From a phage: DNA of 64,000 nucleotides. The stretch lies in sequence record NC_094493.1, one strand, 5' to 3'. The notes beneath the pieces are model-generated. The model was not told the DNA's origin, made no database searches, and saw only the letters and a list, made by a program, of their open reading frames with translations. Below are positions 9,780-23,290 of the stretch, piece after piece. Each line of letters begins with the position of its first letter. Positions within the stretch are counted from its first letter, which is position 1. The position numbers and the translations under genes are program-made.

Positions 9780-10790
9780 CTTGAAAATTCCTGGCATATC
9801 AAGTATAAGGGGGATTTCTAAAATGGATTTCCTCCTTTTGATATTTCACCGGGCCGGATATTTTAAAATTCTTAGAAAATCAGAAAATGGATCGAAAACT
9901 AAAATGGATTTTTCAGAGTAGGCGCGACAAGCTGAATAACTCATCCTATCGTTTGCACCATATTCCAGGCCACCATTATAGATTTCCCACACATGCTAAC
10001 CTCCCTCTACTAGAACTTCCTCCACTTACCCTTGACCTTCTATGGTAACAATCTAACCACTATCTTGAAGTTGCGGTGCAGCTTTCCAGGTACTCGATCT
10101 ACTTTTCATTTCAGGGCTTGGATTTTCTGAAAATTTTTCTCGATAAATTTCTCAGTACTCGATCTGTTTTTCGTTTTCTGAATCGGATTTTCTGGAAATC
10201 GTTCCGGCTCTCGACCTGAAATTTTTGGGGACGAAATCGATTTTTCGTTTTCAGAAATGGATTTTTAAAATTTCTATATGGGAATATTTTAGTGGATACT
10301 ATTTTATAGGAAATTGTTACGGAGGGTAATTAGCGTGCTAATTAAATTTATTAAATGCGAGGAGTTCTCATTTAGAATTTTGAATGATAATCATTCTCGT
10401 TTGCAGAATAACGGGCAGGCCCGGTGATTGTCTCCCGGCCCCTACTGCCCCGGCTTGTTATTATAGTAACACACAGGACAAAGAAAGCAAGAAGTTTTTG
10501 CATAAATTTTTAGACGATAATGATAATCGTTCTCATTTCATGCAGCGCCCATCCCCGGTGGTTGTCTCCCCCGTCACCGGTGCCTGCCGTCCTTTCGATA
10601 GGTATATTTTGCCACCTGGCGGGGCCGCTGTCAACACTTTTCAAAAAAAAAAAATTCTAACCTGATGCGCTGACCGCTGCAACCTGGCGGGGCCAGCCTG
10701 GCAGGGCCTAACTGACCAGGTAGGAGAGAATGAAGGCTTGCAAACCTGGTGGGCCTATGCTATAGGATAGGTAACAATTGAAGAGGAGGT
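9780..10790. repeat. Repeat-rich non-coding region (iteron-like short repeats, tandem ~60-bp repeats, duplicated ~70-bp units)
   Basis: AAAATGGATTT recurs at least four times; tandem repeats at 10088-10275 (GTACTCGATCT...TTTTCGTTTTC...GGATTTTCTG); two related units 10383-10454 and 10515-10590; CCTGGCGGGGCC recurs. Confidence 0.6.
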
Positions 10791-10796
10791 ACAAAA

Positions 10797-10973
10797 ATGG
10801 AAGGTAATATGATCCCCCTGGAAAATGTAGCTATTAATGACGCTGAGGCTATCGCCCTGGTTGAAAAGGCTATGGCGGGAGCGTTGGAACATAAAGAAGA
10901 GTACGAAAAAATGATGGTTAACCTGGCAGGGGCGGCGGCTGGAGAATTCTACCCAAAAAATAATTTTAACTAA
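10797..10973 (+). CDS. small hypothetical protein
   Basis: 58 aa ORF with strong RBS gaggaggt, 7 nt before the ATG. Confidence 0.35.
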   Translation: MEGNMIPLENVAINDAEAIALVEKAMAGALEHKEEYEKMMVNLAGAAAGEFYPKNNFN

Positions 10974-11058
10974 TGGTTGACAGCTCGGACAGTTCTTGTT
11001 ATTCTTATCCTCGCAAGGTGAACAACACCACACCAATTAACAGAGAGGATAAAAAATC

Positions 11059-11256
11059 ATGAACGCCTACGGAATTAAAGTACGTCGCAACACTCGCCAG
11101 GTGGTCACCAATCAAGTGATTTGCCGGGTGGATGTAACCATCAACAACGGGCAAGGCCTTTATAAATTTCGTCGCGGTCATAGCTATACCCTGCAACAGC
11201 TTAACCGTTGCGCCCTGACAAAAGGTCAGATCAACCACTGGTTTAATAAAAAATAA
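11059..11256 (+). CDS. hypothetical basic protein
   Basis: Own TTGACA promoter (~10977); conserved RBS gaggataaaaaatc ATG. Confidence 0.5.
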   Translation: MNAYGIKVRRNTRQVVTNQVICRVDVTINNGQGLYKFRRGHSYTLQQLNRCALTKGQINHWFNKK

Positions 11257-11319
11257 TGTTGACATATGGTCTGACACAAAATACACTGAAATCGCAAAAG
11301 ACACTAAGAGGATAAAATC

Positions 11320-11718
11320 ATGAAAACCACTACCTTTAATTTTGATAATGCGGACTTTTCTTTTTCTGATGTCAAGAACTGCCGCCGTGATCGTGGATTT
11401 TACAAGTCTTATAATCTGGTGGGCCTGGACGATGACAATAATTTGCACGAAGTAGCTGAGATCCGGTATTATGCCGCCGCCAGTGGTAACACTCACTACT
11501 GCGTGTTTTGGATTCACGACAACAAGAACAATAAGTACGGTTATACTGGCGGCAAGGCGAGCGGTCACGGTTACGATAAAGCTAACGCAGCACTTGAGAG
11601 TGCATTAAATGCTATGGAGATCACTGCCGACGGCTGGATCTACGAAGAAGAGTTTTTGTCGGCACTTGCTGACCACCTGGGCTATAAAAAGCACATTGTG
11701 ACATGCGCCCACGAATAA
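11320..11718 (+). CDS. hypothetical protein
   Basis: Promoter TTGACA ~11258; RBS gaggataaaatc ATG. Confidence 0.55.
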   Translation: MKTTTFNFDNADFSFSDVKNCRRDRGFYKSYNLVGLDDDNNLHEVAEIRYYAAASGNTHYCVFWIHDNKNNKYGYTGGKASGHGYDKANAALESALNAMEITADGWIYEEEFLSALADHLGYKKHIVTCAHE

Positions 11719-11800
11719 AAATCATTGACACGCTGCAAAATTTAAGTAAACTAGACACAAAAGGCGGGAATGTTTCCCGCCAGCACAAAGGAAAAAGATC

Positions 11801-12205
11801 ATGAATAAGAACGTACGCCGCATCATGAACGAACTGGCAAACGATGAAAAAATTATTGACATGCACTTAGTGAACATTTGCCGCCGTTGTGTAACCTATA
11901 ACAACCGCGCCGCAAAAGCGCGTGAGATGAACGCAAAAGGCACCTTAAAGCCCTTCCAGGTGGTGGTAAAGGCCATTAAAGATGTAGCTAATACGGCAAA
12001 CCAGGTACAGGGGAACACCAACGAGAGTACCAATATTGATCCGGCTTACATCATGAAACGGATCCGGACCTGCAAGAACAAAGAGCAAGTGTATAACGTC
12101 ATAGACTGGTTGGATTCCATGGGCGACGTGGTTTATAATAGGTTTTCTGCAGCCATTGAGATCCAGCTAGACAGGTTGGACGGGAAAGTACTAAAAACTT
12201 ATTGA
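11801..12205 (+). CDS. hypothetical protein
   Basis: Promoter TTGACA ~11727; leader hairpin ggcgggaatgtttcccgcc (11763-11781); RBS. Confidence 0.55.
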   Translation: MNKNVRRIMNELANDEKIIDMHLVNICRRCVTYNNRAAKAREMNAKGTLKPFQVVVKAIKDVANTANQVQGNTNESTNIDPAYIMKRIRTCKNKEQVYNVIDWLDSMGDVVYNRFSAAIEIQLDRLDGKVLKTY

Positions 12206-12208
12206 GTT

Positions 12209-12252
12209 TATTTTTAGATGGCCTTGACTCCAGGGCCATCGATAAAGTAAAC
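12209..12252 (+). repeat. Conserved ~45-bp intergenic hairpin element, copy 1
   Basis: TATTTTTAGATGGCCTTGACTCCAGGGCCATCGATAAAGTAAAC; inverted repeat GATGGCC/GGCCATC around TTGACT; near-identical copies at 12829 and 16571. Confidence 0.6.
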
Positions 12253-12285
12253 TAATCTCAGTTAAGCGAAAAAGGGGGCTTTAAG

Positions 12286-12405
12286 ATGGGCACTACACGC
12301 CAATACACAAAGGTAACTATTATCGTCTGCGTTGTCGGTTACATCCTGGCGCAAATGTTAATGAGTAGCGCTAACAGTTTTGCAAAATTTTTCTTAAATT
12401 TTTAA
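12286..12405 (+). CDS. small hydrophobic peptide (39 aa)
   Basis: ATG after RBS aaaggggg; predicted single transmembrane helix; below ORF-track size cut-off. Confidence 0.3.
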   Translation: MGTTRQYTKVTIIVCVVGYILAQMLMSSANSFAKFFLNF

Positions 12406-12434
12406 TTGACAAGCTAACTTAGATCGGTATACTT
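12406..12434 (+). promoter_or_regulatory. sigma70-like promoter
   Basis: TTGACA, ~16-17 bp spacer, TATACT; followed by leader hairpin and RBS of gene 12485. Confidence 0.5.
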
Positions 12435-12484
12435 AAACCCGTAAACGGGAAAACTTCCCAGAACACACAAAAGGAGAAAACACC

Positions 12485-12826
12485 ATGACCACTATGACCG
12501 CCGCAGAAAAAGCTATTCAGGTTGCCGCACTGAAAAAACAGATCGCAGACCTTGAGAACAAGATCGATACCTTTGAAATCGACGAGGACAAGTACGACGA
12601 AAACTATGATGAATGGTTAGACGAGATCTACGGCGAAATCATGATCGGAAACATTTCTTTTCTTCCGTCGCGTATCCTCAAGGAGCTAGATCCTATCGCT
12701 TACCGCTGCGGATTTAGCGACTACATCGACAGCCTGGATATTGAGGACGATGAAGAATACCAGGAATTACAGACAGAGTTAGAAGAAGCAAAAGAAGAGC
12801 TTGCGGAGCTGGAAGAAAACGAGTAA
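12485..12826 (+). CDS. hypothetical acidic coiled-coil protein
   Basis: Promoter, hairpin leader, RBS aaaggagaaaacacc ATG; highly acidic. Confidence 0.55.
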   Translation: MTTMTAAEKAIQVAALKKQIADLENKIDTFEIDEDKYDENYDEWLDEIYGEIMIGNISFLPSRILKELDPIAYRCGFSDYIDSLDIEDDEEYQELQTELEEAKEELAELEENE

Positions 12827-12828
12827 GA

Positions 12829-12873
12829 TTATTTTTAGATGGCCTTGACTCCAGGGCCATCAATAAAGTAAAC
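12829..12873 (+). repeat. Conserved ~45-bp intergenic hairpin element, copy 2
   Basis: Near-identical to 12209-12252, placed directly after a stop codon. Confidence 0.6.
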
Positions 12874-12915
12874 TTTATACTGTTAACACTGAACTAATGC
12901 ATAGGAGTTAAAACC

Positions 12916-13161
12916 ATGGCAGCACTAATCACCAAATATTATGCCCCTACCAACACCAAAAGCGCCCGTATCATGGTAAAAGGCTTCGGACGTAAAAAGG
13001 TTTACACCTGGGATTATGCCTTAGACACGGAAGACAACTACACCAACGCGATGACAGATTTTATTAATGAGCTGAACACGCGGATCTTGACAAATTATAA
13101 AATTACCGATATTGCCTATATAGGGGAAGGCGGGATCTGTTTTGTCGGTATCGTCAAATAA
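12916..13161 (+). CDS. hypothetical protein
   Basis: RBS/start region ataggagttaaaaccatggc identical to that of gene 17188. Confidence 0.55.
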   Translation: MAALITKYYAPTNTKSARIMVKGFGRKKVYTWDYALDTEDNYTNAMTDFINELNTRILTNYKITDIAYIGEGGICFVGIVK

Positions 13162-13236
13162 ACTGTTTTTTCGGTGGTCCTGGTAGCAGGGCCATCTATA
13201 AAGATAGTTTATCAATACAATGAAAGGAGAAAGTAC

Positions 13237-13590
13237 ATGATCAGCGGGGCAAGTTTTATTATTGGCGCTATTGCTACGGCTTTAATTGTAAACAAGATCC
13301 AATCTAAAAATGAAAAAGAGAGCAACGCGCTCACAGAATACCCATTTTGGGTATTCAACGACAATGAAGACTACATTATCAAGTACAAGAATGAGAAGGG
13401 CGACCAGGTAACACCGCGACCGATCCCAGCTTACAAGATGCAAGAAACACTATACCGCCTAAAGGCTGGAGGCGCAAAAATCGTAGACTTTTGGGGATAT
13501 GATTGCAAGGATCAGGAGGTTATAAAGCGCCGTATCCGGGCTATTCAGGCCAATATTGAAGTTAGCAAGGGGGGAATATATGAAGATTAA
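13237..13590 (+). CDS. hypothetical protein with N-terminal transmembrane helix
   Basis: RBS aaaggagaaagtac ATG; preceded by a degenerate copy of the 45-bp element (13168-13205). Confidence 0.5.
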   Translation: MISGASFIIGAIATALIVNKIQSKNEKESNALTEYPFWVFNDNEDYIIKYKNEKGDQVTPRPIPAYKMQETLYRLKAGGAKIVDFWGYDCKDQEVIKRRIRAIQANIEVSKGGIYED

Positions 13591-13777
13591 TTTTGAGAAG
13601 ATTGTAAAGCGATCTCATGATTCCAAAGAGCTGCCGGAACGACGCCAGCGCAACAATAAACTGAATAAGCCAAAAAGATTTGGGAAGATCTGGCGGAATC
13701 ATTATGATCGTAAATTGCCGGGCCTACTTTTGGAACGTGAACGACAGGCGGAACGATACCGCCACAAAGGCAAATAA
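13580..13777 (+). CDS. hypothetical basic protein
   Basis: RBS aaggggggaatat ATG; R/K-rich; followed by terminator. Confidence 0.4.
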   Translation: MKINFEKIVKRSHDSKELPERRQRNNKLNKPKRFGKIWRNHYDRKLPGLLLERERQAERYRHKGK

Positions 13778-13784
13778 CAACCAA

Positions 13785-13812
13785 CGCCCCGCCATTGTGC
13801 GGGGCTTTTTTA
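13785..13812 (+). terminator. Intrinsic terminator
   Basis: Hairpin cgccccgccattgtgcggggc followed by TTTTTT. Confidence 0.6.
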
Positions 13813-14023
13813 TTTCTATCCTACGAATAGCGCCCCTGGTTGGCCCTGTAAACGCCATAAAAGCCCCTACCTATGCAATCCCCTTTCTTAACCTGAAAAC
13901 AGCGTCTAGGGCCGTTTTATGGCGTTAAAAATGTTATTGACAGTGATTTTATTTAAAGCTTGACACCTTGGAATAGTCCGGATATACTGACCACATCAAA
14001 GCAAGAAGGAAGGAGTAAACGCC

Positions 14024-14284
14024 ATGCGTAAATTGAAAAATTTTGATAAGGTAGATGTAGTACTGAATAATTTTTACTACTGCAATAATAAAGCCGTTTG
14101 GTGGCGTGATAGTTCCACCGATAAAGTTAAGGCGCGCTTTCTCCAAGGGCACTGGCAAGGCCGTCCAGTGATTAAAATCATGGGGCAATTGGTAGCGTTT
14201 AAAAATTGCCGCCGTGTTGATGACGTTGAAGAGATTTTAAGCATTTTGCGCCACAATAATTTAAAAAATAGTGTTGACAAGTAA
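14024..14284 (+). CDS. hypothetical protein
   Basis: Promoter-like TTGACA at ~13938/13962; RBS aaggaagga. Confidence 0.5.
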   Translation: MRKLKNFDKVDVVLNNFYYCNNKAVWWRDSSTDKVKARFLQGHWQGRPVIKIMGQLVAFKNCRRVDDVEEILSILRHNNLKNSVDK

Positions 14285-14300
14285 ATCTCGATAAGTATAC
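14273..14300 (+). promoter_or_regulatory. sigma70-like promoter
   Basis: TTGACA, 16 bp spacer, TATACT; leader begins with hairpin ggcgggaaaacttcccgcc (14311-14329). Confidence 0.5.
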
Positions 14301-14358
14301 TTAAACACACAGGCGGGAAAACTTCCCGCCACTAACAAAGAAAATAGGAGAAAATATC

Positions 14359-14982
14359 ATGACCACCGTTAACATTACCACAGGTTACAATTTATCTTTC
14401 GACGTGCTGACCGATGAACAAAAAGAAAAAGCTATTGAAATGGTCCGCGAAAGAGAAGAACACAGCGGGGATAACTTTTTTGCAGAAAGTGTAATTGAAG
14501 ACTATAAAGAACATATCTTTCCAGAGTATGGCCTTGAAGATACCAAGGTACATTGGTCCGGCTTTTGGTGCCAGGGCGACGGCGCGTCAATCAGTGCGGA
14601 AAACGTGGATTTAGAAAAATTCTTGCGTAAAGTCAAGTCTCTGACTAAATTCCGCTCAATTCGTCACTTGTTCGGCACAATGCACGATGGCGAGCTATCC
14701 GCAAGTGTTGAGCGTGATCCATATAGCCGCTATAGTCACGAAAACACTGTAAGCGGGTACATCGATACTACATGGCTAGACCTGACAGCCAAGCAAGAAA
14801 GTAAGGTTGAAGAGCTGGAAGAGCTGATCACCGAGACGGTACGGGAGCTATCCCGCAAGGTTTATGTAGACCTGGAGGAGGCCTATCTTGAACAGTTTAC
14901 TACCGAAAACCTGATCGGCCTTATTGAAGCCAATGATTGGCGGTTTAATGTGGATGAATATGGGGAGATGAGTTTTTCATAA
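14359..14982 (+). CDS. hypothetical acidic protein
   Basis: 207 aa ORF behind promoter, leader hairpin and RBS ataggagaaaatatc ATG. Confidence 0.6.
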   Translation: MTTVNITTGYNLSFDVLTDEQKEKAIEMVREREEHSGDNFFAESVIEDYKEHIFPEYGLEDTKVHWSGFWCQGDGASISAENVDLEKFLRKVKSLTKFRSIRHLFGTMHDGELSASVERDPYSRYSHENTVSGYIDTTWLDLTAKQESKVEELEELITETVRELSRKVYVDLEEAYLEQFTTENLIGLIEANDWRFNVDEYGEMSFS

Positions 14983-15071
14983 ATAAAGTGTTGCAATAAT
15001 CTAAAAACCTGCTATATTAAAACTCAAGGGGCGAGATGACTTGCCCCACACAAAACAAAGAGGAAAACATC

Positions 15072-15452
15072 ATGAAAAACACCACCAAGGCTATTGACAC
15101 CGTTATGTTTAACCTGGTTACATTCCGTGAAGATATGAAAGATCTTCCACGTGAAACTGTGTGCGACCATATCGAAAACTATCGCAAACTAATCAAAGAG
15201 TTGCCTTTAAAACGTGACCAATATGCGGCTAACGCTATGCTTAACGCCATGATCAAAAAGATGATTCAGTGTGATTTAACTCTGGCCTATGATTATGCAG
15301 GTGGTCGTTTTGCAGTATACAATCAGCCCGTGCCTGGTATGAGCACCACCGAAGAATTGCACGCGCTCAATCTAAAACAAGATGTGTGGGATAGTATGCC
15401 CCGCGTGGTGGTATGGGTAGAAAGCGGAAAGATTTACGGCGATAATTTTTAA
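15072..15452 (+). CDS. hypothetical protein
   Basis: Leader hairpin ggggcgagatgacttgcccc (15028-15047); RBS gaggaaaacatc ATG. Confidence 0.55.
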   Translation: MKNTTKAIDTVMFNLVTFREDMKDLPRETVCDHIENYRKLIKELPLKRDQYAANAMLNAMIKKMIQCDLTLAYDYAGGRFAVYNQPVPGMSTTEELHALNLKQDVWDSMPRVVVWVESGKIYGDNF

Positions 15453-15462
15453 TCAGGTAACA

Positions 15463-15491
15463 GGCGGCGGCATATTTGCCGCCTTATTGTT
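15463..15491 (+). terminator. Putative intrinsic terminator
   Basis: Hairpin ggcggcggcatatttgccgcc followed by a T-rich tract. Confidence 0.45.
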
Positions 15492-15519
15492 AATCAGAAC
15501 TGTAAAAGAGGTACATAGA

Positions 15520-15891
15520 ATGGAATTTATTATTTTGGCTATATTAGTTGCCTTGTTTAACGCCTGGATCGCTGGCAAGATGGGCAGATCCGCCTTTTTA
15601 TGGTTTATTATATCTATTTTCCTGGGAGTGGTTGCAACTATTGTATTGGTTATCCTTGCAATTGTTGACAAGGGGAATAATAGAAAGGGTAAAGTATTTT
15701 CAGACCTGTACGACGCTCAAACATTTGTCAACGCCTACTACAGCGATCTTCCAGTCTCCCTACGTTGCAGCCTTGCACAACAGGTTTTCGATGAAGCTAA
15801 AACCAGAGATCACGCCCATGAGATTTGTTTAACTGAGGCGGATCGCCTATTTGAGAGGAATAGAAAATATGTGGACCAGCCGTTTAAATAA
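15520..15891 (+). CDS. putative membrane protein
   Basis: RBS aaagaggtacatag ATG; two predicted transmembrane helices followed by a soluble C-terminal domain. Confidence 0.5.
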   Translation: MEFIILAILVALFNAWIAGKMGRSAFLWFIISIFLGVVATIVLVILAIVDKGNNRKGKVFSDLYDAQTFVNAYYSDLPVSLRCSLAQQVFDEAKTRDHAHEICLTEADRLFERNRKYVDQPFK

Positions 15892-16090
15892 TGCCACGTT
15901 AATTAATCCCTTTAGTGAAGATTTGAAGCCAGCCGCCTGGCGCGATGGATTCAATAACGAAAGCTTTATTTTCAGGCCTGATCTTAAGGAATTTTATAAC
16001 AATGGATCGAACAACGACAGAGATAATTTTTCTTGTAATGTGCGTGGTGATAATACTCCTGGGGGCCATTGCAAACCACGTCACTGCTAA
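15869..16090 (+). CDS. hypothetical protein
   Basis: ORF overlapping upstream gene end, RBS gagga; frame assignment uncertain; other small transmembrane-peptide ORFs overlap here. Confidence 0.3.
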   Translation: MWTSRLNNATLINPFSEDLKPAAWRDGFNNESFIFRPDLKEFYNNGSNNDRDNFSCNVRGDNTPGGHCKPRHC

Positions 16091-16234
16091 CAGGAGGGAA
16101 GGGGGAGACGATGACAACCAAGGATAAGCCCCGCACCGATAAGGTGCGCCGTGTTATGGTATGGCTTGAGATCATCGCCCTTGAAATATTGTTAGGCGTA
16201 GGGATGTACTTTATCGCTGTAAGTAACTGATAAC

Positions 16235-16265
16235 GGCCCCCAATCCCTGGGGGCTTAACTTTTTC
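16235..16265 (+). terminator. Intrinsic terminator
   Basis: Hairpin ggcccccaatccctgggggc followed by a T-rich tract. Confidence 0.55.
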
Positions 16266-16366
16266 AAAAATTTTTCTTCCCGGGTGTTGCAATCCGGTCC
16301 GGAATATGGATAATAACAATCAACGGGGAGCAATCCCCACCACAAAGACTAGAAAGGAGAAACAAA

Positions 16367-16567
16367 ATGAGCAATAATATCCGCGTTATTAACTTCAAAA
16401 AAGAAGAAAAAATTGCCGTGCTGATTGACGGTCAAGAAATCTTTAAAGGTGATTATGAAGATCATCAAACGGCGATTAGTATCACTCGCGTGATTGGTTA
16501 CCACAATTTTTACCCTCAAGGCGCTGAGGCAGCAGTAAAACGAATTAAAGAGATTGTAGGCCTGTAA
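16367..16567 (+). CDS. hypothetical protein
   Basis: Promoter-like TTGCAA ~16287; leader hairpin ggggagcaatcccc; RBS aaaggagaaacaaa ATG. Confidence 0.5.
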   Translation: MSNNIRVINFKKEEKIAVLIDGQEIFKGDYEDHQTAISITRVIGYHNFYPQGAEAAVKRIKEIVGL

Positions 16568-16570
16568 AAT

Positions 16571-16614
16571 TTATTTTTAGATGGCCTTGACTCCAGGGCC
16601 ATCGATAAAGTAAA
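16571..16614 (+). repeat. Conserved ~45-bp intergenic hairpin element, copy 3
   Basis: Near-identical to copies at 12209 and 12829. Confidence 0.6.
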
Positions 16615-16658
16615 TTTAAACCCTGTTAAAATAATCAGTGCAAAAAGGAGTAATGATC

Positions 16659-16958
16659 ATGTTTATCCAGGCTAATAATCTTTATTTCTTTGATGGTCAG
16701 ATCGTAGACGGCGTGGAAGTAGAGATCACTGGGTGCCCCGGTGGTCAGGCTATGATGTTCCGTAATAATGCCTTTGATGATCCCTGTATCCTCCTGGCGA
16801 TGGAAGTTACCAAGCTGGATGATAAGAAAACGCTGATTGACTATTCTATTAAAGATCATCCTGATTATCATATGATTCATGGCGATCTGTGTATCGTTGA
16901 CCGTGACAAGGTGGGCGGCATTGTGATCGCTATTGTGAACGATGTTTTCTCTAAATAA
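16659..16958 (+). CDS. hypothetical protein
   Basis: RBS aaaggagtaatgatc ATG at 16659. Confidence 0.5.
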   Translation: MFIQANNLYFFDGQIVDGVEVEITGCPGGQAMMFRNNAFDDPCILLAMEVTKLDDKKTLIDYSIKDHPDYHMIHGDLCIVDRDKVGGIVIAIVNDVFSK

Positions 16959-17187
16959 TTCCGGCAAATGATGCAAAATAAGGCCCCTGGCAGGGCCTGC
17001 AGCGATATAATCACATAAAGGCTATGCGGTTGCATGGCCTTTATTATTTTAGCGTTACAGCTGCCCCCAAGGCGCTTAAAAAATTTTTAAAGAAGTACTT
17101 GCATCAAGTCCTACAATATGGATAATAAAGGGTGTCGGGGGGCGGTGAGGCCTCCAATCATTAACCAGATAGATAGGAGTTAAAACC

Positions 17188-17472
17188 ATGGCTATTGTTA
17201 CCGTTGGCGATGTAGTAGAAATGGAAGCCAAATACTTAAAAGCGGGTATGCATATCATACGGAATGATCAAGAATTGTTATTAACCATGGTTGAATATAA
17301 TCCCGGTCAGGATTATCCTAGCGTTGACTACTTTTTCCAGTATGTTGATGAAGAATTAAAAGAGGATGAGGCTTATCAGGGTGAATTTTGTAATTTCTTT
17401 TGCCCTGATGAGGTTGTAAAAGTTATTTATCAACCTGGCGTACCTTTCCCGTTGCACGCCATCAATAAATAA
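17188..17472 (+). CDS. hypothetical protein
   Basis: Promoter-like TTGCAT ~17098; RBS/start region identical to gene 12916. Confidence 0.55.
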   Translation: MAIVTVGDVVEMEAKYLKAGMHIIRNDQELLLTMVEYNPGQDYPSVDYFFQYVDEELKEDEAYQGEFCNFFCPDEVVKVIYQPGVPFPLHAINK

Positions 17473-17534
17473 GCCTGGCGGGGCCGAAAAGGCCCCTCCT
17501 GAAATTATGAAAAAATAAAGAGGGGTAAATCATC

Positions 17535-17762
17535 ATGATTGAACAAGTTAAACGCGCCGAGGCTATTAATGGCAATGTGATCTATTTTGTCAGCAAAAAC
17601 GAAAAAGTACCATATGCGGCGGTAATAGTACAGCCTGACGGCAATTATTGGTTTACTGTATACGGATCTTATTCTTTTGGGCGTCCGGTGCATGATAGAA
17701 TTTTGAAAGTAGCGAACCCTACCGGGAAGAATATCACAGCAGAAAAATTTTTTGAAAAATAG
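17535..17762 (+). CDS. hypothetical protein
   Basis: RBS aagaggggtaaatcatc ATG. Confidence 0.5.
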   Translation: MIEQVKRAEAINGNVIYFVSKNEKVPYAAVIVQPDGNYWFTVYGSYSFGRPVHDRILKVANPTGKNITAEKFFEK

Positions 17763-17793
17763 TTGACATGACCGTATAAGACTGTAGTATATA
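17763..17793 (+). promoter_or_regulatory. sigma70-like promoter
   Basis: TTGACA, then TATATA-like -10; leader hairpin gggggcaagcccc follows. Confidence 0.45.
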
Positions 17794-17838
17794 AATCAAA
17801 GGGGGCAAGCCCCACCAACCACAAAGAGGATAAAAACC

Positions 17839-18018
17839 ATGGCTATTATTGCAAAGACCGAGATTGTAGGGTTAGATTCTATTCTCCTGGCATATGAGGA
17901 AGCTATAGAAATGTATGTGGTTTCCTACGGTGAATATATCCGTGAATATAAATCTGTTGATCTAGCTTTTGAATGTTATATTCGCCAGGTCAATAAAGCA
18001 TATGATGATTATCGTTAA
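17839..18018 (+). CDS. small hypothetical protein (59 aa)
   Basis: Conserved RBS aagaggataaaaacc ATG behind promoter and hairpin; below ORF-track size cut-off. Confidence 0.4.
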   Translation: MAIIAKTEIVGLDSILLAYEEAIEMYVVSYGEYIREYKSVDLAFECYIRQVNKAYDDYR

Positions 18019-18103
18019 AATAGTTTGACAACAATTATAAATCGGGTAGAATGTATTTCGTAGGGCGGCAATGATGCCGCTCACAACTAGAAGAGGGGTC
18101 ATC

Positions 18104-18298
18104 ATGGCGCTTAAAAAACTAACAAGCAATACTCGTTGGGATGAAATCGACGGGGAAGTTTACATTTTCGCCCGTAAACCAGGGGATCAAAAATGGTCAA
18201 AGGCTTTTACTTGCCACCCTGCAACAATAGACCTGATAAAAAGGGAAGGTCTACGTGAAGCAGTATCAAGAAGCCTACTGATCCCTTGTAAAAAATAG
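18104..18298 (+). CDS. hypothetical protein
   Basis: Promoter TTGACA ~18026; leader hairpin gcggcaatgatgccgc; RBS gaggggtcatc ATG. Confidence 0.45.
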   Translation: MALKKLTSNTRWDEIDGEVYIFARKPGDQKWSKAFTCHPATIDLIKREGLREAVSRSLLIPCKK

Positions 18299-18494
18299 TT
18301 GGACAATACGCGGTTACCTGGTAAAGTGTACGACATAGGGCGGGGCAATAAGGCAACGCCCATTAATGAGGGTGGAATCATGTTAGAGAAAATTTTCACG
18401 GTTGTAGTAGTGGGCCTGGCGTTATCGGTTGGAGTAGTTGCAACTATGGCTAACATGATCCTATCTTCCCACGGTATTGGATAAGGTGAATCAA

Positions 18495-18710
18495 ATGATC
18501 ACGAATAAAACAGGTAAAACAGAATTTTTACGCGGCTTGCAGATCGGCAAGCCTGAGATCTGGTATTGCACTAAAACACCACGTGACGAAATGAAAGATT
18601 TTACCGCCACGCTGAAGCGGGTAAAGATATCTATCACGCAGAAAAAAGCCTTGATAGTGGTTGAAGGTGAGATCCCCCAAACCGTTGTTATAGTTGAGCG
18701 TACAGCATAG
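18495..18710 (+). CDS. hypothetical protein
   Basis: RBS aaggtgaatcaa ATG. Confidence 0.4.
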   Translation: MITNKTGKTEFLRGLQIGKPEIWYCTKTPRDEMKDFTATLKRVKISITQKKALIVVEGEIPQTVVIVERTA

Positions 18711-18798
18711 TTTAATTTATAGAGATACCTGAAAATTAACCAATAAAGCATAAACAGGCGGTAACCGCCTTAAACGTAGCAGAAAGAGGATAGACACA

Positions 18799-19083
18799 AT
18801 GAAAAAGATGATCGCAGTGGTTGCCCTGGTTGTTGGACTTAATGCGCCTGTAATGGCTAAAGAGCTGGCAAAAGAGGTTAATCTAACGGATATTCATGCC
18901 GTCAATCAAATCGGGGTTACTTATCGCTTATGCCTTGCCGCTAAAACTTTTAATGACGGCACAACAGAGTACTACGGATTCGAGGGTATCCGGTGCGGTG
19001 AGCTTGCTCGCGACCTTAAGGAAGATCCAGATCTGGAAGATCTACCCATCACCGTAAACGGTAAAGCTTACGTAAACCGTTAA
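18799..19083 (+). CDS. putative secreted/periplasmic protein
   Basis: N-terminal signal-peptide-like MKKMIAVVALVVGLNAPVMA; leader hairpin ggcggtaaccgcc; RBS agaggatagacaca ATG. Confidence 0.55.
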   Translation: MKKMIAVVALVVGLNAPVMAKELAKEVNLTDIHAVNQIGVTYRLCLAAKTFNDGTTEYYGFEGIRCGELARDLKEDPDLEDLPITVNGKAYVNR

Positions 19084-19233
19084 CCATGAGAAAGATAACC
19101 ATCACCTTGGGGATTGTGGTAGCAATACTGGCGCTCTTTCCCCTTATGGTTAGGTATGTGCTGATCAGTGTTGTCCTGATAGTCAGTGATCTATTGGAAA
19201 CGGTTGGCACCTTGTTTTAAAGAGCGATAAAAA

Positions 19234-19425
19234 ATGAATATCGAACAAGTTAGAAAGGTATTAGCGGTACTGCGTTATCATAATCATAGAAAGGTCATAG
19301 ACGATCCTGATTATGTTGATTCAAGCCTGGAAGAGGATACACTACAAGCCATAAGTAACATGCAAGAATTGCTAAAGCGCATGACAGAGAAAAACCGACC
19401 GGACTACATAGGCGAAAAAATATAA
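19234..19425 (+). CDS. hypothetical protein
   Basis: ORF; followed by a hairpin plus T-run (19441-19472). Confidence 0.45.
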   Translation: MNIEQVRKVLAVLRYHNHRKVIDDPDYVDSSLEEDTLQAISNMQELLKRMTEKNRPDYIGEKI

Positions 19426-19440
19426 TATTTATAAACTACA

Positions 19441-19472
19441 AAACAGGGCTTGCAATGGTCCTGTTTTTTGTT
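19441..19472 (+). terminator. Putative intrinsic terminator
   Basis: Imperfect hairpin acagggcttgcaatggtcctgt followed by TTTTTT. Confidence 0.45.
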
Positions 19473-19484
19473 ATACTTATTCCA

Positions 19485-19530
19485 CGGCAGGCACCTGGCG
19501 ACGGGGGGAGACAATCACCGGGCCTGCCTG
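19485..19530. repeat. Inverted copy of the element found at 10413-10454 and 10553-10589
   Basis: Reverse complement matches core CCGGTGATTGTCTCCC plus flanking GGCAGG and GGTGCCTGCC; the element is itself a long hairpin. Confidence 0.5.
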
Positions 19531-19640
19531 TCATATAAGAACTATAAAAACCGTTGACATCTGCCATGGGGTGGGGTAACATTTATCTTGAAGGGGCAAG
19601 ACGTTTGCCCCACACAACAACCAGAAGAGAGGAAAACATC

Positions 19641-19913
19641 ATGTCAAGCTGGATTAATCAAGAGGTCGAATCACGTTTTAATGCTATATGGGATCTCATC
19701 GAAAAAGAGGACGGAACATCAAGCCCTTACCTCAATAATCTTGAATTCCATTTTGTGGAAGCGATGAACGCAGAACATGATCACGAAGGTGGTGCGGACG
19801 AGTTCGCTAAAGGGTATGGCTTCAACAATGCCAACGAAATGATCGAGGCGGTTGTACTCCAGGCTGAGGAAGATTATCAATTAAAAACGCTTGAATTCTG
19901 CCGCCGTAAGTAA
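19641..19913 (+). CDS. hypothetical protein
   Basis: Promoter TTGACA 19555 with -10 TAACAT; leader hairpin ggggcaagacgtttgcccc (19593-19611); RBS gaggaaaacatc ATG. Confidence 0.55.
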   Translation: MSSWINQEVESRFNAIWDLIEKEDGTSSPYLNNLEFHFVEAMNAEHDHEGGADEFAKGYGFNNANEMIEAVVLQAEEDYQLKTLEFCRRK

Positions 19914-19974
19914 TAAGATAATGACACGGGCCAAAAGGCCCACTAAACCAGGACCACATAAAGAGGAAAACATC

Positions 19975-20238
19975 ATGAAACGTCTTGACCAGCTCAAACT
20001 AGTTCAGTACATGGCTTACAGAATTCTTGAAGTCCAAAAAGGTAGCAAAAAAGAAGTTTGCGAGAAAGCGTACAAGATCTTTACTCGCAAAAAAGACGAT
20101 TGGATGTTACGCCAGACTAAAAAGGCTGACATCTTGGGGTACCTGGAAGAAGAGATCCGGCTTGAAGAACAAGAAGAGATCCGCCGTAGTGAGGCAGATT
20201 ATCAGGCAGCTTGGGAAAACTGGATGAGCAACAAATAA
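19975..20238 (+). CDS. hypothetical protein (basic, coiled-coil-like)
   Basis: Leader hairpin gggccaaaaggccc; RBS gaggaaaacatc ATG identical to gene 19641. Confidence 0.55.
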   Translation: MKRLDQLKLVQYMAYRILEVQKGSKKEVCEKAYKIFTRKKDDWMLRQTKKADILGYLEEEIRLEEQEEIRRSEADYQAAWENWMSNK

Positions 20239-20382
20239 TACAACAAGTTACATGGTCAGGGGCAATAAAGCCCCTTGATTACATAAAAATTATGCTATCC
20301 CTTGTTGACAGGGATCGGCAGTTTTGCTATATTCTTTTTTGAAGGGAAGTTGTAAGAAAATTAACTAAGAGGTAAAAACACC

Positions 20383-20802
20383 ATGAACATTAAATCTGAT
20401 AATCCGGCATATAGCTTTGATAACGCTTTTTGTCACGGTCCGGCGGCGAAAGGATTCGAAATCGATGGTAAACTAGTTATTGTTAATGTTGACGGGGAAG
20501 AGGTTGCAGTATATCCGGTGGCAGACGTTAAAAGCCGTCTACAATGCCGCATGGATGTTACCGCCTATCAGCTTGATCCGGTCCGGGTAGTTGCCCTGGT
20601 CCTGGAAGAAGAAATTAAAGCAATGCACCACAGCAACAAGTTTATTGGTGACGCTCAAGATAATATGCAGGTATGCCGCTATAAAGTTAATGAAGTGCTT
20701 AAAGAGTACGGCTATAAGGATTTAATGATCAAGCGTGATGAAAAATTCCGCTACCGTAACGACCTGGCAAATCGGATTTTTGAAATATACGAATCATTAT
20801 AA
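20383..20802 (+). CDS. hypothetical protein
   Basis: Promoter TTGACA ~20305 with -10 TATATT; RBS agaggtaaaaacacc ATG; terminator follows. Confidence 0.55.
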   Translation: MNIKSDNPAYSFDNAFCHGPAAKGFEIDGKLVIVNVDGEEVAVYPVADVKSRLQCRMDVTAYQLDPVRVVALVLEEEIKAMHHSNKFIGDAQDNMQVCRYKVNEVLKEYGYKDLMIKRDEKFRYRNDLANRIFEIYESL

Positions 20803-20820
20803 TTTTTTAACTGAATTATC

Positions 20821-20846
20821 AAGGGGCTTAGGCCCCTTTCTTTTTG
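20821..20846 (+). terminator. Intrinsic terminator closing the + strand block
   Basis: Hairpin aggggcttaggcccct followed by TTTCTTTTT. Confidence 0.65.
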
Positions 20847-20849
20847 TCT

Positions 20850-23290
20850 GCTCTTCCCCCTACCATAAACGGCCCTACCTGGCAAGTGGAATAATTGACG
20901 AGCCATCAATCCCACACACTGTACAAATATACATGTAAAATAGCTATTGCATAACCTTTCATTGTGTGGTAGCAGGGCTATTTTTACCCGTTTTCCCTTC
21001 CAAAATTGCACGTAATGCCGCTATTGCACAAATTTTAACCTGATGCACATCTCCAATATCTTGTCAACAACTAAAAATCTTTATAAGTCATACACTTACA
21101 CAACATAGAAAGCGTGTCCTACGCGAAAAATCGAGTATAACTATAGCCGCCAGATCTCAGAATTCACGTACGCACGCCATTCTATAGCCTGCAAAGTATT
21201 TATTCCAACCACAGAATAACGGAATAGTCAATACCTGCATAAAATAATTATTCGTGTAAACTGCATAACATAAATCAGCTCAGGTGTCAACATTTTTCGT
21301 AAACAGTCCGAAATTATCACGATGAGTTATCATAAACAGAGAAATCTTTAGTCGTCTAATGTTTACTGTACATTACTATACTGACTGGAATCATTAGATG
21401 ACTAAGAGAAAGATAAGAAATAATTAATAATGTGATTATTTTACCTGTAACAATAAGGCAACTATGCAAACGAATGGCATGGCGCGACGGAGTCGCGACA
21501 TAATATAAAAGCAGTAACCATCACCCCCGTGATAGTTTGTCTGCAATCTATTAATCAGATCATAGTTGCCTTGTATTTAGTTAATCATGACATAACAAGC
21601 AAGGCAACTATAGATCTTCTAATAGTTGCCCTGCTTTTATATTATGTCATAGAAACACCCGAAGGGGTGACCAAAGGTCACCTGGCATAGCCAGCGAAAG
21701 ATTATTAACTTGCTAATCGTTATCATGCAAACGAATGGCATGGCTTATAATTTTTGAGCAAATAGTCTATACGTGAACAGTGAGGCATGCAATAGTAACA
21801 ATTGTTATTATATCCAGTGTTTAGTTTGCCCAGTGTGTCACTATTATGTCATATTATGTCACAGTATGTCAGACAAGTTTTTCTCCTCTTTGTCAAGTGC
21901 TGCATGAAAAATTTACAAGCTGGTATGGTAGCATTTTTGCGGTCCTGTTTACATTCAGTAATGTATGTATAATCCTTGTTGTGTGGGCGTTTAGACGTCT
22001 AGACGGTTGGAAGTCCACAGGTCAATATCTAATCTATCGGCTGCTAACTATATCCCACACAAATAGTAAGAAATATGATTGTTATATGCGTAAACAGTAA
22101 CTCATGTTATCAATCCCTGTATGTATCGCCAGTGGTGCGCATAATGGGTATTATGTTAAATTGCCCGTAATGATAATGGTTCTCACAATGATATGTATTC
22201 TCATTCCCCCACACAAAATAGATTGCAAATGTTGTGCCACTATGTGAACGGCCTCACCTATTAATTTGCCTCACTGCCTCGATATTTGAGAATTGTTATA
22301 AGAATGAGAATGATTCCCATTTCGTCCGCCTGGCAGCACTCCTGTAGGACAAGCACAAAATCGTGGCATAGCTGGACCTGTTCAGATATTTCTGGCTGGC
22401 TCTTCAGGTCTGTGTGGGAAAAGCCAACCCCCTCCGGCGGCGGGGAGGGTGTCAATTAAAAAATTTATGGGGTATATGAAGCGCTCTTCAGGTAAGGCAT
22501 GTACTATGGGATGAAACCCTCTTCAGGCAATGATATTTGTGGGTGTGATATTTGCTGGAAAGCCAGATATGACGGGACTCCCGGCGGGGCAGGGGTAGTA
22601 CAGACAGGGAAAATATGGGGATGTAGTTGGGTGAATTGATCGGGCAGGTAGAGTACGGAATATGTTACAAGTATGTTAAATATGGAGGGTGAATATCTGC
22701 AGGATTTGTGTGTAAAATCAAAGACTTAAGTAGTGTTGTGGTATTTTCTATAAATAATTCAAGTTTAATAGGTAATATTTGTCTCTATCCACTTTGTGTG
22801 GTAAACAAATTCAAATGAGATTGGTTTACAAGTGTATACATAATATGCAAATTAAAGATACAAGAAACCCCCCTCCCCCTTCGGCTACCATTCACCTTTT
22901 CCTCTGACTGGTACTTAAACACTTATTCAGACTCTTCAGGTTATCACCCATACACCATATGGCAGTGACTGGTGTCCTCCGGCCCCTCTTTCGTCACCCG
23001 TCCGCTTCGCCATGCTAATGCCATAGCCAAATGTTCGGTTGTTCACCCTGTTCACTCAGGTGTATCTCCATACCCCTTCAAACCGAAGAGAACAGAAAAC
23101 CCGAATTACTCGGTAAAAGAAAAGAGAAGAACTTAATTTTATCAGGATAGGCAAGAATGTCAAGGCATGACTGCTCACTAAACAAGCAAACAGTCATGTG
23201 TGGGAGGTAAGTGATTGTGGTGGTAGGAAATTTAGTTGAAAGATGTGTTATAGGTGCTTCCAGCACTTTAGCCTGGCAGCTAATTGTGTG
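20850..23290. other. ~2.4 kb non-coding, repeat-rich convergence region between the + and - gene blocks
   Basis: No convincing ORF. Short direct repeats (AACGAATGGCATGGC x2; GGCAACTAT/ATAGTTGCC in both orientations; TATGTCA x3; CTCTTCAGG x3); GC hairpins around 22430 and 22580. Confidence 0.5.

What the first reader, a model, noticed from the sequence alone, without database searches (positions are those of the whole stretch)
10797..20850. Array of ~26 small genes, most with its own consensus promoter, a 5'-terminal leader hairpin and a near-identical ribosome-binding region
Most genes in this 10 kb block share the same expression layout: TTGACA and a TATAAT-like -10 box, then within a few nucleotides of the predicted transcription start a 5-8 bp GC hairpin (GGCGGGAAAACTTCCCGCC at 14311, GGGGCAAGACGTTTGCCCC at 19593, GGCGGGAATGTTTCCCGCC at 11763), then CACAAA, then AGGA-AAAA-C-ATG. 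The proteins themselves are unrelated and mostly 35-140 aa. A hairpin at the extreme 5' end is a known way to protect mRNA from 5'-end-dependent decay, so this looks like a standardised high-expression cassette system for diverse small proteins, possibly host-takeover or anti-defence factors. The block also differs in composition and signal style from the rest of the window.
Basis: partly seen in the sequence, partly recalled or inferred. Interest (0 to 1): 0.8.

Follow-up and report, generated by a model that had tools for sequence, protein, structure and literature searches.

The report
Promoter–hairpin cassettes driving phage early genes
In an rV5-like E. coli phage, 29 small genes of unknown function are wired with repeated ~80-base control units (host-type promoter, often a GC hairpin a few bases into the transcript, a standard ribosome site), a new geometric variant of cassettes known from T4-like phages.

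Summary
The window is an rV5-like coliphage (Vequintavirus). Window 10797-20850 holds 29 + strand ORFs of 34-207 aa. They fall into 29 different PHROG families, all of unknown function. The described layout is real but over-counted. Eighteen genes have a sigma70-like promoter directly upstream. Ten or eleven of those carry a GC hairpin starting 8-11 nt after the -10 box (shuffles give 0.1). The ribosome-site context (A-rich spacer, ATC/ACC before ATG) is specific to this block.

The hairpins lack U tracts and sit downstream of the promoter, so they are not terminators of the preceding gene. Six canonical terminators lie elsewhere in the block. The same layout recurs about 20 and 15 times in Phapecoctavirus and Justusliebigvirus early regions.

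In 11 Vequintavirus genomes the hairpin is kept in 98 of 101 orthologous sites, although loops mutate, invert or are replaced. Gene gain, loss and inter-subfamily exchange break at the -35/UP element, the ribosome site or the stop codon.

The closest known system is the PeSL (promoter-early stem-loop) cassette of T4-like phages. There the stem-loop sits inside the promoter; here it is transcribed. A role in 5'-end mRNA stabilisation is plausible but unproven: start sites are unmapped, and the predicted 3-4 unpaired 5' nucleotides are borderline.

The parts
10797..20802 (+). Array of 29 small ORFs (34-207 aa) = rV5 ORFs 197-164, early hyperplastic region
   Evidence: 29 distinct PHROG families, all unknown function
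11725..11800 (+). Class A cassette: TTGACA-16-TAAACT, hairpin 11763-11781 (GGCGGGAA/TGT/TTCCCGCC, -14.6 kcal/mol), CACAAA, Shine-Dalgarno sequence, ATG 11801
   Evidence: z -3.9
12406..12484 (+). Weak class A cassette: TTGACA-16-TATACT, short hairpin 12447-12459 (offset 13, -5.9 kcal/mol); 74% identical over 66 nt to the cassette at 14274
   Evidence: D5; z -1.2
14274..14358 (+). Class A cassette: TTGACA-16-TATACT, hairpin 14312-14330
   Evidence: z -5.2
14991..15071 (+). Class A cassette: TTGCAA-16-TATATT, hairpin 15028-15047
   Evidence: z -4.2
16287..16366 (+). Class A cassette: TTGCAA-16-GATAAT, hairpin 16325-16338
   Evidence: z -2.7
17098..17187 (+). Class A cassette (weaker -35): hairpin 17138-17155 with a G.U pair at the position that is G-C or A-U in orthologs
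17763..17838 (+). Class A cassette: TTGACA-16-TAGTAT, hairpin 17801-17813
18025..18103 (+). Class A cassette: TTGACA-16-TAGAAT, hairpin 18063-18082. Homology to rV5 breaks at 18034, just after the -35 hexamer
   Evidence: z -2.7
18300..18379 (+). Class A cassette: TGGACA-16-TAAAGT, hairpin 18338-18361. The cassette and the start of its gene (18285-18470) are 97% identical to Justusliebigvirus inny
   Evidence: z -4.0
19554..19640 (+). Class A cassette: TTGACA-17-TAACAT, hairpin 19593-19611
   Evidence: z -3.4
19891..19974 (+). Class A cassette with a weak promoter overlapping the upstream stop codon, hairpin 19928-19941. Its ribosome-site 17-mer (19953-19969) flanks an extra gene in rV5
10977..11005 (+). 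Class B: consensus-like promoter without a stable hairpin. Others at 11259-11287, 13960-13988 and 20305-20333
12205..12253 (+). Class C: 49-nt repeat. A 7-bp stem GATGGCC/GGCCATC carries the -35 hexamer TTGACT in its loop, followed by TAAACT. Copies at 12826-12874 and 16568-16616 (96%); degenerate copy at 13161-13209
   Evidence: D1; sequence read directly
13786..13805 (+). Canonical intrinsic terminator (stem plus T run). Others at 15462-15484, 16235-16255, 17015-17044, 19440-19467 and 20821-20838. They divide the block into 6 units
18756..18770 (+). GC hairpin with no recognisable promoter, 28 nt before ATG 18799. A similar one (GGGGCCgaaaaGGCCCC, about 17480-17496) precedes ATG 17535

Best explanation
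This is the early 'hyperplastic' region of an rV5-like phage. Most of its small orphan genes carry a self-contained regulatory cassette of about 75-90 nt, packed between the upstream stop codon and the ATG.

The cassette parts, in order, are:
- an A/T-rich stretch that usually contains the upstream stop codon;
- a near-consensus host sigma70 promoter;
- in the main class, a GC-rich hairpin (G-rich 5' arm, C-rich 3' arm) starting 8-11 nt after the -10 box, which is about +3/+4 of the transcript;
- an A/C-rich, U-poor, unstructured spacer;
- a strong Shine-Dalgarno sequence and an A-rich spacer ending in ATC or ACC before ATG.

Host RNA polymerase fires from each cassette immediately after infection. 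Transcripts run on to the next of six true terminators, so they are nested.

The hairpin is transcribed. It acts as a structure, not as a sequence. Most likely it is a 5'-proximal mRNA element that limits 5'-end-dependent decay and insulates a standard, open ribosome site from upstream sequence. For read-through transcripts it is also an internal punctuation hairpin.

Because the -35/UP element, the hairpin arms and the ribosome site are repeated many times, they also serve as short homologies. Through them, single genes are inserted, deleted, replaced and exchanged between phages, as proposed for PeSL cassettes.

Shown here: the anatomy, its statistics, its conservation and the breakpoints. 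Inferred: the start site, the stabilising effect and the recombination mechanism.
For: Identity and context: the window is 92-96% identical to rV5-like phages, and the block equals rV5 ORFs 197-164.

Fixed geometry: 10 of 18 promoters carry a hairpin at offset 8-11, against 0.1 in shuffles. Offsets are scattered outside the block.

Start-site signal: in 45 cassettes from three genera, position 7 after the -10 box is C in 30 and position 8 is a purine in 39. That is the expected Y-R start motif.

Not terminators: the 10 nt after the hairpins are 49% A and 17% T. The longest T run is 1 or less in 35 of 45. Real terminators lie elsewhere.

Folding: the hairpin is the minimum-energy and centroid structure, with the Shine-Dalgarno sequence and AUG open.

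Structure rather than sequence is conserved:
- The hairpin is kept in 98 of 101 orthologous sites in 11 genomes.
- Each cassette shows 2-7 hairpin variants, mostly in the loop.
- Three loops are exact inversions: TGT>ACA, AAC>GTT, GACGT>ACGTC.
- One hairpin is replaced by another type.
- One stem position shows the series G-C > G.U > A-U.

Breadth: about 20 copies in Phapecoctavirus and about 15 in Justusliebigvirus. A covariance model finds 17 and 10 at E <= 0.01, full-length matches all on the gene strand.

The block-specific ribosome-site style is shown.

Shuffling:
- The rV5/window break is at 18034, just after a -35 hexamer.
- An extra rV5 gene is flanked by the duplicated 17-nt ribosome-site sequence.
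- Modules shared with Stephanstirmvirinae at 80-93% identity start at the UP/-35 element or the Shine-Dalgarno sequence and end at stop codons, in a different gene order.
- Another 4-kb part of the window matches only Vequintavirus.
Against: - No 5' ends are mapped.
- With the start at position 7 or 8, most transcripts keep 3-4 unpaired 5' nucleotides. That is enough for RppH and RNase E (PMC8833179).
- Four equally strong promoters have no hairpin. At least two hairpins have no recognisable promoter.
- The alignment-based covariation test is inconclusive. Paired cells are 74% against 71% in shuffles, and a one-column slide pairs 82%, because G runs pair with C runs in shifted registers.
- The G.U versus A.C asymmetry is too small to identify the functional strand.
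- Similarity between cassettes could partly reflect common descent or gene conversion.
Confidence: 0.6

Rival explanations
1. The stem-loops are terminators or attenuators for transcription arriving from upstream, as originally proposed for PeSL elements. They would limit the build-up of read-through across a dense promoter array.
For: In RB49/phi1, one PeSL stem-loop placed between a strong promoter and lacZ reduced expression as much as rrnB T1 (PMC2839356). The hairpins here are stable and GC-rich.
Against: No U tract follows them: 17% T, and the longest T run is 1 or less in 35 of 45. The block has six canonical terminators at other sites. A terminator has no reason to keep a fixed 8-11 nt offset from the -10 box of the next promoter.
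Confidence: 0.12
2. The hairpins matter only at the DNA level. They are inverted repeats that form hairpins or cruciforms and act as recombination hot spots or cassette junctions. Any presence in mRNA is incidental.
For: Three exact loop inversions and one whole-hairpin replacement occur among close relatives. Crossovers were mapped to the stem-loop loop in RB49 mini-circles (PMC2839356). Mosaic junctions fall at cassette elements.
Against: Most observed junctions lie at the -35/UP element, the ribosome site or the stop codon, not in the hairpin. The tight offset to the -10 box, the constant G-first orientation on the coding strand and the U-poor open leader point to a transcript-level constraint.
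Confidence: 0.12
3. The hairpins protect 3' ends or guide processing of the upstream cistron. After cleavage of read-through transcripts they would block 3'-exonucleases, as REP elements or the T7 RNase III hairpins do.
For: There are only 6 terminators for 29 genes, so most cistrons lack their own 3' hairpin. Hairpins also occur between genes without a recognisable promoter, at 18756 and about 17480.
Against: This does not explain the fixed distance to the -10 box. In class A, the hairpin lies beyond the next promoter, not right after the stop codon.
Confidence: 0.1
4. The inverted repeats are operators at about +4 to +22 for a phage-encoded dimeric repressor that shuts off the early promoters.
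For: They are dyad-symmetric and overlap the initially transcribed region, a classic operator position. In Stephanstirmvirinae the arms are fairly uniform, of the type (G)GGCGG(G/C)AA.
Against: Arm sequences differ between cassettes (GGCGGGAA, GGGCGGC, GGGGCAA, GGGGA, GGGCC). The half-site spacing varies from 3 to 14 nt. Loops invert and hairpins are swapped without loss.
Confidence: 0.06

Closest known systems
PeSL (promoter-early stem-loop) regulatory cassettes of T4-like phages RB49/phi1, PST/T4 and nt-1/KVP40 (Arbiol et al. 2010, PMC2839356; Comeau et al. 2014, PMC4122927)
   Same: Both sit in intergenic DNA of a hyperplastic region full of small orphan genes. Both have an A/T-rich stretch holding the upstream stop codon, a sigma70-consensus early promoter, a GC stem-loop with a G tract then a C tract, and a standardised Shine-Dalgarno sequence and start. 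Indels and replacements between relatives break at the cassettes. The class C repeat here, with the stem-loop over the -35 hexamer, matches a published PeSL subclass.
   Different: [quoted passage not shown] Here the main class sits at a fixed 8-11 nt after the -10 box and is transcribed. There is no sequence relationship: the covariance model finds only E about 0.02 in 50 kb of RB49. The host phages differ (Vequintavirinae and Stephanstirmvirinae, not Straboviridae). Terminator activity and mini-circles are untested here.
5'-terminal stem-loop mRNA stabilisers of E. coli (ompA and papA 5' UTRs; Emory, Bouvet and Belasco 1992, cited in PMC3997798) and synthetic 5' hairpin stabilisers
   Same: Both are sequence-independent stable hairpins very near the 5' end, followed by an open ribosome-binding region. 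Here the loop and arm sequence vary freely while pairing is kept.
   Different: The predicted single-stranded 5' segment is 3-4 nt. That is the limit of what blocks RppH and RNase E (PMC8833179). No half-life or start-site data exist. In ompA the element is a single gene's UTR, not a repeated cassette.
Intrinsic (Rho-independent) terminators
   Same: GC-rich hairpins of 5-8 bp with short loops, in intergenic DNA.
   Different: There is no U tract. They lie downstream of a promoter and are followed by an A/C-rich leader and a ribosome site. On the opposite strand, three (11781-11763, 14330-12 and 16342-21) look weakly terminator-like.
Integron gene cassettes with attC hairpin sites
   Same: Both involve small, unrelated, mostly orphan genes in an array. 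Each gene is bounded by an imperfect inverted repeat, and content varies by presence or absence between relatives.
   Different: No integrase was looked for or seen. Each gene here has its own promoter. Junctions map mostly to the promoter or ribosome site rather than to the hairpin. This is an analogy only.

Membership tests
PeSL cassettes (T4-like phages) | Intergenic location in a hyperplastic region rich in small orphan genes | tested here: met
   29 ORFs of 34-207 aa fall in 29 different PHROG families of unknown function. One Pfam match is above cut-off. Gene content varies among relatives.
PeSL cassettes (T4-like phages) | Strong sigma70-consensus early promoter preceded by an A/T-rich stretch that contains the upstream stop codon | tested here: met
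   Sixteen promoters score at least 9/12 and two score 8/12. The -35 hexamer starts 0-8 nt after the stop codon or overlaps it.
PeSL cassettes (T4-like phages) | Adjacent GC stem-loop (G tract then C tract) within, upstream of, or just downstream of the promoter hexamers | tested here: met
   The feature is present, but the main class has a different and fixed position, 8-11 nt after the -10 box. The class C repeat has the stem-loop over the -35 hexamer. [quoted passage not shown]
PeSL cassettes (T4-like phages) | Shine-Dalgarno sequence and start codon at the 3' end of the motif | tested here: met
   The hairpin end lies 18-33 nt before the ATG. The ribosome-site context is standardised.
PeSL cassettes (T4-like phages) | Stem-loop acts as a transcription terminator or attenuator | not testable with these tools
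   No U tract follows the hairpins. RB49 stem-loops also lack a canonical U tract, so sequence alone cannot decide.
PeSL cassettes (T4-like phages) | Recombination between cassettes causes indels or replacement of orphan genes; mini-circles form | tested here: inconclusive
   Junctions at the -35/UP element, the ribosome-site 17-mer and stop codons fit the model. The sample is about a dozen junctions. Mini-circles cannot be tested.
PeSL cassettes (T4-like phages) | Sequence homology to RB49/phi1 PeSL motifs | tested here: not met
   The covariance model built from these hairpin leaders finds only E = 0.018-0.04 in 50 kb of RB49 that includes its hyperplastic region. The resemblance is in architecture, not descent.
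5'-terminal stem-loop mRNA stabiliser (ompA type) | Hairpin no more than about 2-4 nt from the transcript 5' end | tested here: inconclusive
   The start site is predicted only: C at position 7 in 30 of 45 and a purine at position 8 in 39 of 45. This gives a mode of 3 unpaired nt (start at position 8) or 4 (start at position 7).
5'-terminal stem-loop mRNA stabiliser (ompA type) | Effect depends on the structure, not on the stem-loop sequence | tested here: met
   The hairpin is retained in 98 of 101 orthologous sites despite loop inversions, indels, a hairpin swap and a G-C > G.U > A-U series. The formal covariation count is inconclusive.
5'-terminal stem-loop mRNA stabiliser (ompA type) | Prolongs mRNA half-life through the RppH/RNase E 5'-end pathway | not testable with these tools
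   This needs rifampicin-chase half-life measurements in wild-type, rppH and rne backgrounds.
Intrinsic terminator | GC hairpin immediately followed by a U tract | tested here: not met
   The 10 nt after the hairpins are 17% T, and the longest T run is 1 or less in 35 of 45. None of the class A hairpins is called on the + strand.

The most novel reading that the evidence does not exclude
The +3/+4 hairpin is a self-marking device. It would exempt phage early mRNAs from a phage-boosted, 5'-end-dependent decay of host mRNA. rV5 gp11 is reported to be Srd-like (PMC3606486). From my own knowledge, untested here, T4 Srd stimulates RNase E. The same inverted repeat would act at the DNA level as a recombination site, making each leader plus ORF a portable unit traded between phage subfamilies.
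Probability: 0.15. Interest if true: 0.8.

Novelty: new variant of a known kind. Interest (0 to 1): 0.5.

Why it matters
- It would extend mobile promoter/stem-loop cassettes beyond T4-like phages to two further subfamilies of large coliphages. It would also show a distinct design in which the hairpin is part of the transcript.
- That gives a concrete, testable model for how phages express and trade dozens of orphan early genes, the pool where anti-defence and host-takeover factors are usually found.
- It provides exact junction motifs for tracing single-gene exchange between phage lineages.
- It offers a natural library of compact promoter / 5' hairpin / ribosome-site parts for E. coli engineering and for phage-genome design.

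Tried and rejected
- Rfam scan of 10300-21300 at E <= 1: two chance-level hits only.
- Covariance model plus count of structure pairs: it did not give clean covariation, because G-run/C-run stems pair in shifted registers and two hairpin sub-types align one column apart.
- G.U versus A.C asymmetry, to identify the functional strand: too few cases (4 against 1 internal).
- IMG/VR search with the 207-aa protein: only 2 close loci, so little gain for the ortholog survey.
- Function of the proteins: Pfam, PHROGs, NCBIfam (ten proteins) and PDB (one protein) gave nothing beyond a T7 gp1.1-like domain.
- Literature searches for start-site or transcriptome data on Vequintavirinae or Stephanstirmvirinae: nothing usable. 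One hit concerned a T5-like phage.
- The genome papers on rV5, Certrevirus CB7 and Felix O1 describe sigma70-like promoters but no downstream hairpin.
- In the searched library, papers that discuss PeSL elements concern T4-like phages, jumbo phages and cyanophages; none concerns rV5-like phages.
- Rejected on sequence grounds: the hairpins as terminators of the preceding gene, N4-type promoter hairpins, RNase III sites (stems too short) and a dimeric operator.

Full report
**What the window is.** Megablast of 10797-20850 finds 253 phage records. Sixty-one cover at least 80% of the query at 92-96% identity, and nearly all are rV5-like coliphages of the genus Vequintavirus. The block corresponds to rV5 ORFs 197-164, all annotated as hypothetical. 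The rV5 record annotates six sigma70-type promoters and two terminators here. The rV5 genome paper describes 33 sigma70-like promoters genome-wide and says nothing about hairpins behind them (PMC3606486).

**Genes.** I count 29 + strand ORFs of 34-207 aa. All start with ATG and have a Shine-Dalgarno sequence. Each matches a different PHROG family, and all 29 families have unknown function. This shows the ORFs are conserved phage genes and unrelated to each other. The only Pfam match above cut-off is Phage_1_1 (T7 gp1.1-like) for 13580-13777. NCBIfam (ten proteins) and PDB (one protein) add nothing. The suggestion of host-takeover or anti-defence roles therefore remains untested.

**Checking the layout.** The upstream regions fall into classes.
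- Class A is a sigma70-like promoter followed by a GC hairpin. It precedes the genes starting at 11801, 14359, 15072, 16367, 17188, 17839, 18104, 18380, 19641 and 19975, with a weak case at 12485.
- Class B is an equally good promoter with no stable hairpin (11059, 11320, 14024, 20383).
- Class C is a 49-nt repeat present three times at 96% identity, plus one degenerate copy. Its 7-bp stem GATGGCC/GGCCATC carries the -35 hexamer TTGACT in the loop (12286, 12916, 16659; variant at 13237).
- The remaining genes are translationally coupled, or follow a terminator or a hairpin without a recognisable promoter.

So 18 of 29 genes have their own promoter, and 10-11 of 29 have the promoter-plus-hairpin layout.

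**The class A geometry is far from chance.**
- Ten of 18 promoters have a hairpin of -7.5 kcal/mol or better starting 8-11 nt after the -10 box. In 300 shuffles the mean was 0.1 and the maximum 2.
- The offset is exactly 10 nt in seven cases.
- Behind promoter-like sites elsewhere in the 64-kb window, hairpin offsets are scattered.
- Eight of 11 leaders fold with z <= -2.4. The hairpin is both the minimum-energy and the centroid structure, and the Shine-Dalgarno sequence and AUG are unpaired.

**The ribosome-site style is specific to the block**.

| Feature | Block (29 genes) | Other rV5 genes (81) |
|---|---|---|
| C directly before the start codon | 66% | 11% |
| ATC or ACC before the start codon | 17 of 29 | not among the six commonest triplets |
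| Shine-Dalgarno spacing of 7-8 nt | 19 of 29 | 29 of 81 |
| A content of the spacer | 48% | 31% |

Sixteen of 28 intergenic distances are 61-91 nt. Base composition does not differ from the rest of the window.

**Are the hairpins terminators?** No. They lie downstream of the promoter. In 45 cassettes, the 10 nt after them are 49% A and 17% T, and the longest T run is 1 or less in 35. Six canonical terminators (stem plus T run) sit at 13786, 15462, 16235, 17015, 19440 and 20821. They divide the block into six units with internal promoters, so transcripts must be nested.

**Where would transcription start?** Across 45 cassettes from three genera, position 7 after the -10 box is C in 30 and position 8 is a purine in 39. 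That is the usual pyrimidine-purine start motif at the usual distance. It puts the hairpin at about +3/+4. The unpaired 5' segment has a mode of 3 nt if the start is at position 8, or 4 nt if it is at position 7.

[quoted passage not shown] From memory, the classical ompA work placed the limit for protection at about 2-4 nt; I did not read that paper, and only its reference is listed in PMC3997798. The geometry is therefore borderline, and protection is plausible rather than demonstrated.

**Relatives.**
- The same design is more regular in Stephanstirmvirinae. A typical unit is TTGACA-16-TAAGAT-gtatCACATAg-GGCGGGAAGTGGTTTCCCGCC-...-GAGAG...ATCATG. It occurs about 20 times in 10 kb of Phapecoctavirus tuntematon and about 15 times in Justusliebigvirus inny.
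- A covariance model built from 21 hairpin leaders finds 5 window copies at E < 1e-4. It finds 17 in tuntematon and 10 in inny at E <= 0.01. Full-length matches are all on the gene strand.
- In Certrevirus (CR9, DU_PP_IV) only a few copies have this geometry. [quoted passage not shown]

**Structure or sequence?** I compared the 11 window cassettes with their orthologs in 10 further Vequintavirus genomes, 101 sites in all.
- The hairpin is retained at 98 sites.
- Each cassette shows 2-7 hairpin variants, mostly in the loop.
- Three loops are exact inversions: TGT>ACA at 11801, AAC>GTT at 14359 and GACGT>ACGTC at 15072.
- At 18380 the whole hairpin is replaced by a different type while its flanks stay conserved.
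- At 17188 one stem position runs G-C (most genomes), G.U (this window) and A-U (one genome).

This argues for a structural constraint and against a sequence-specific operator.

The formal alignment-based count is inconclusive. Paired cells are 74% against 71% in shuffles, and sliding by one column gives 82%, because G runs pair with C runs in several registers. Counts of G.U against A.C are too small to identify the strand.

**Mosaic junctions**.
- Homology to rV5 and to two other relatives (isim, vB_EcoM_12A_SA_NWU) stops at 18033-18034, just after the -35 hexamer at 18025-18030. It resumes at 18438.
- rV5 has an extra gene (ORF166) flanked by a duplicated 17-nt ribosome-site sequence (19953-19969).
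- Other indels sit directly after stop codons (16966-16971, 19426-19466).
- Segments shared with the other subfamily are single-gene modules at 80-93% identity. The segments 17532-17761, 17827-18020 and 18285-18708 begin at the UP/-35 element or the Shine-Dalgarno sequence and end at the stop codon. They lie in a different order in inny.
- The first part of the 18285-18708 module (18285-18470, the cassette and the start of its gene) is 97% identical to inny, closer than to the one Vequintavirus genome compared directly (A51.2, 85.7%).
- By contrast, another 4-kb part of the window (30000-34000) matches only Vequintavirus at blastn sensitivity. The block matches 334 records, including phages of Salmonella, Cronobacter and Pectobacterium and jumbo phages.

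**Closest known system.** The PeSL (promoter-early stem-loop) cassettes of T4-like phages share most of the anatomy:
- an A/T-rich stretch with the upstream stop codon;
- a sigma70-consensus promoter;
- a G-tract/C-tract stem-loop;
- a Shine-Dalgarno sequence and start;
- a location in hyperplastic orphan-gene regions;
- junctions of indels (PMC2839356, PMC4122927).

I read the RB49 hyperplastic region directly. [quoted passage not shown] The authors interpret it as a terminator or attenuator.

The element here works like a PeSL, but it is a separate lineage and a new geometric variant.
- The stem-loop has a fixed position after the start site.
- It lacks sequence homology to RB49; the covariance model finds only E about 0.02 in RB49.
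- It occurs in different phage subfamilies.

In the searched library, none of the papers that discuss PeSL elements concerns rV5-like phages. Papers on rV5 and Certrevirus describe only the promoters.

**Mechanism, with confidence.**
- Confident: these are self-contained immediate-early expression cassettes read by host RNA polymerase.
- Likely: the hairpin is a transcribed, sequence-independent structural element tied to the start site.
- Plausible: it slows 5'-end-dependent decay and insulates a standard open ribosome site.
- Likely as a consequence: the repeated -35/UP, hairpin and ribosome-site sequences supply the homologies for single-gene shuffling.

Rival readings (attenuator, pure DNA recombination site, 3'-end protector, operator) are each weaker, for the reasons given in their entries. 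The first three could coexist with the main reading.

**Verdict.** The feature is a new variant of a known kind, of moderate interest.

Noticed in passing
window 10516-10534 and about 10380-10402: GATAATGATAATCGTTCTC matches the E. coli Fur-box consensus with 2 mismatches (0.08 such matches expected by chance). A second similar palindrome lies 136 nt upstream. Both sit in the roughly 500-nt non-coding stretch before the block, each followed by a related GC-rich segment (ccggtgattgtctccc). Similar palindromes occur in the Pectobacterium phage locus L008.
   Followed up: partly
window 10615, 10683, 10697, 10922, 16986, 17474 (+ strand); 9622, 20882 (- strand); 55058: The motif CCTGGYRGGGCC occurs 9 times with at most 1 mismatch, against 0.39 expected. 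Three copies lie within 100 nt just upstream of the first gene of the block. Its function is unknown.
   Followed up: partly
window 12205-12253, 12826-12874, 16568-16616 (96% identical); 13161-13209 (65%): A 49-nt repeat whose 7-bp stem (GATGGCC/GGCCATC) carries the -35 hexamer TTGACT in its loop. The degenerate copy keeps the stem but has lost the -35 hexamer. This resembles the PeSL subclass with the stem-loop over the -35 hexamer.
   Followed up: partly
hairpins at window 11763-11781, 14312-14330 and 15028-15047, against loci L011, L003 and L019: The hairpin loops are exact reverse complements in some relatives (TGT/ACA, AAC/GTT, GACGT/ACGTC). This is a sign of flip-flop inversion between the arms at the DNA level. 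Loops are far more variable than the roughly 7% background divergence.
   Followed up: partly
window 18285-18708 against L006 7001-7423: The promoter-hairpin cassette and its two small genes are 90% identical overall to Justusliebigvirus inny, a different subfamily, and 97% identical over the first 186 nt. That is closer than to the one Vequintavirus genome compared directly (A51.2, 85.7%), which suggests recent inter-subfamily transfer.
   Followed up: partly
window 60531-60600: There is one further strong promoter (TTGACA-17-TATAGT) with a hairpin 9 nt after the -10 box (ATCGTGGT...GCCACGGT). It lies far outside the block, where the + strand genes resume.
   Followed up: no
GenBank records MG0656xx (for example L020, L021): Many of the closest database matches (up to 99.7% identity) are UNVERIFIED records named 'Campylobacter phage'. 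By sequence they are ordinary rV5-like coliphages, so the host labels are probably wrong.
   Followed up: no
window 13580-13777: This 65-aa protein is the only one in the block with a Pfam match above cut-off (PF08200, T7 gene 1.1 protein family, E = 3.8e-10). It overlaps the preceding gene by 11 nt.
   Followed up: no
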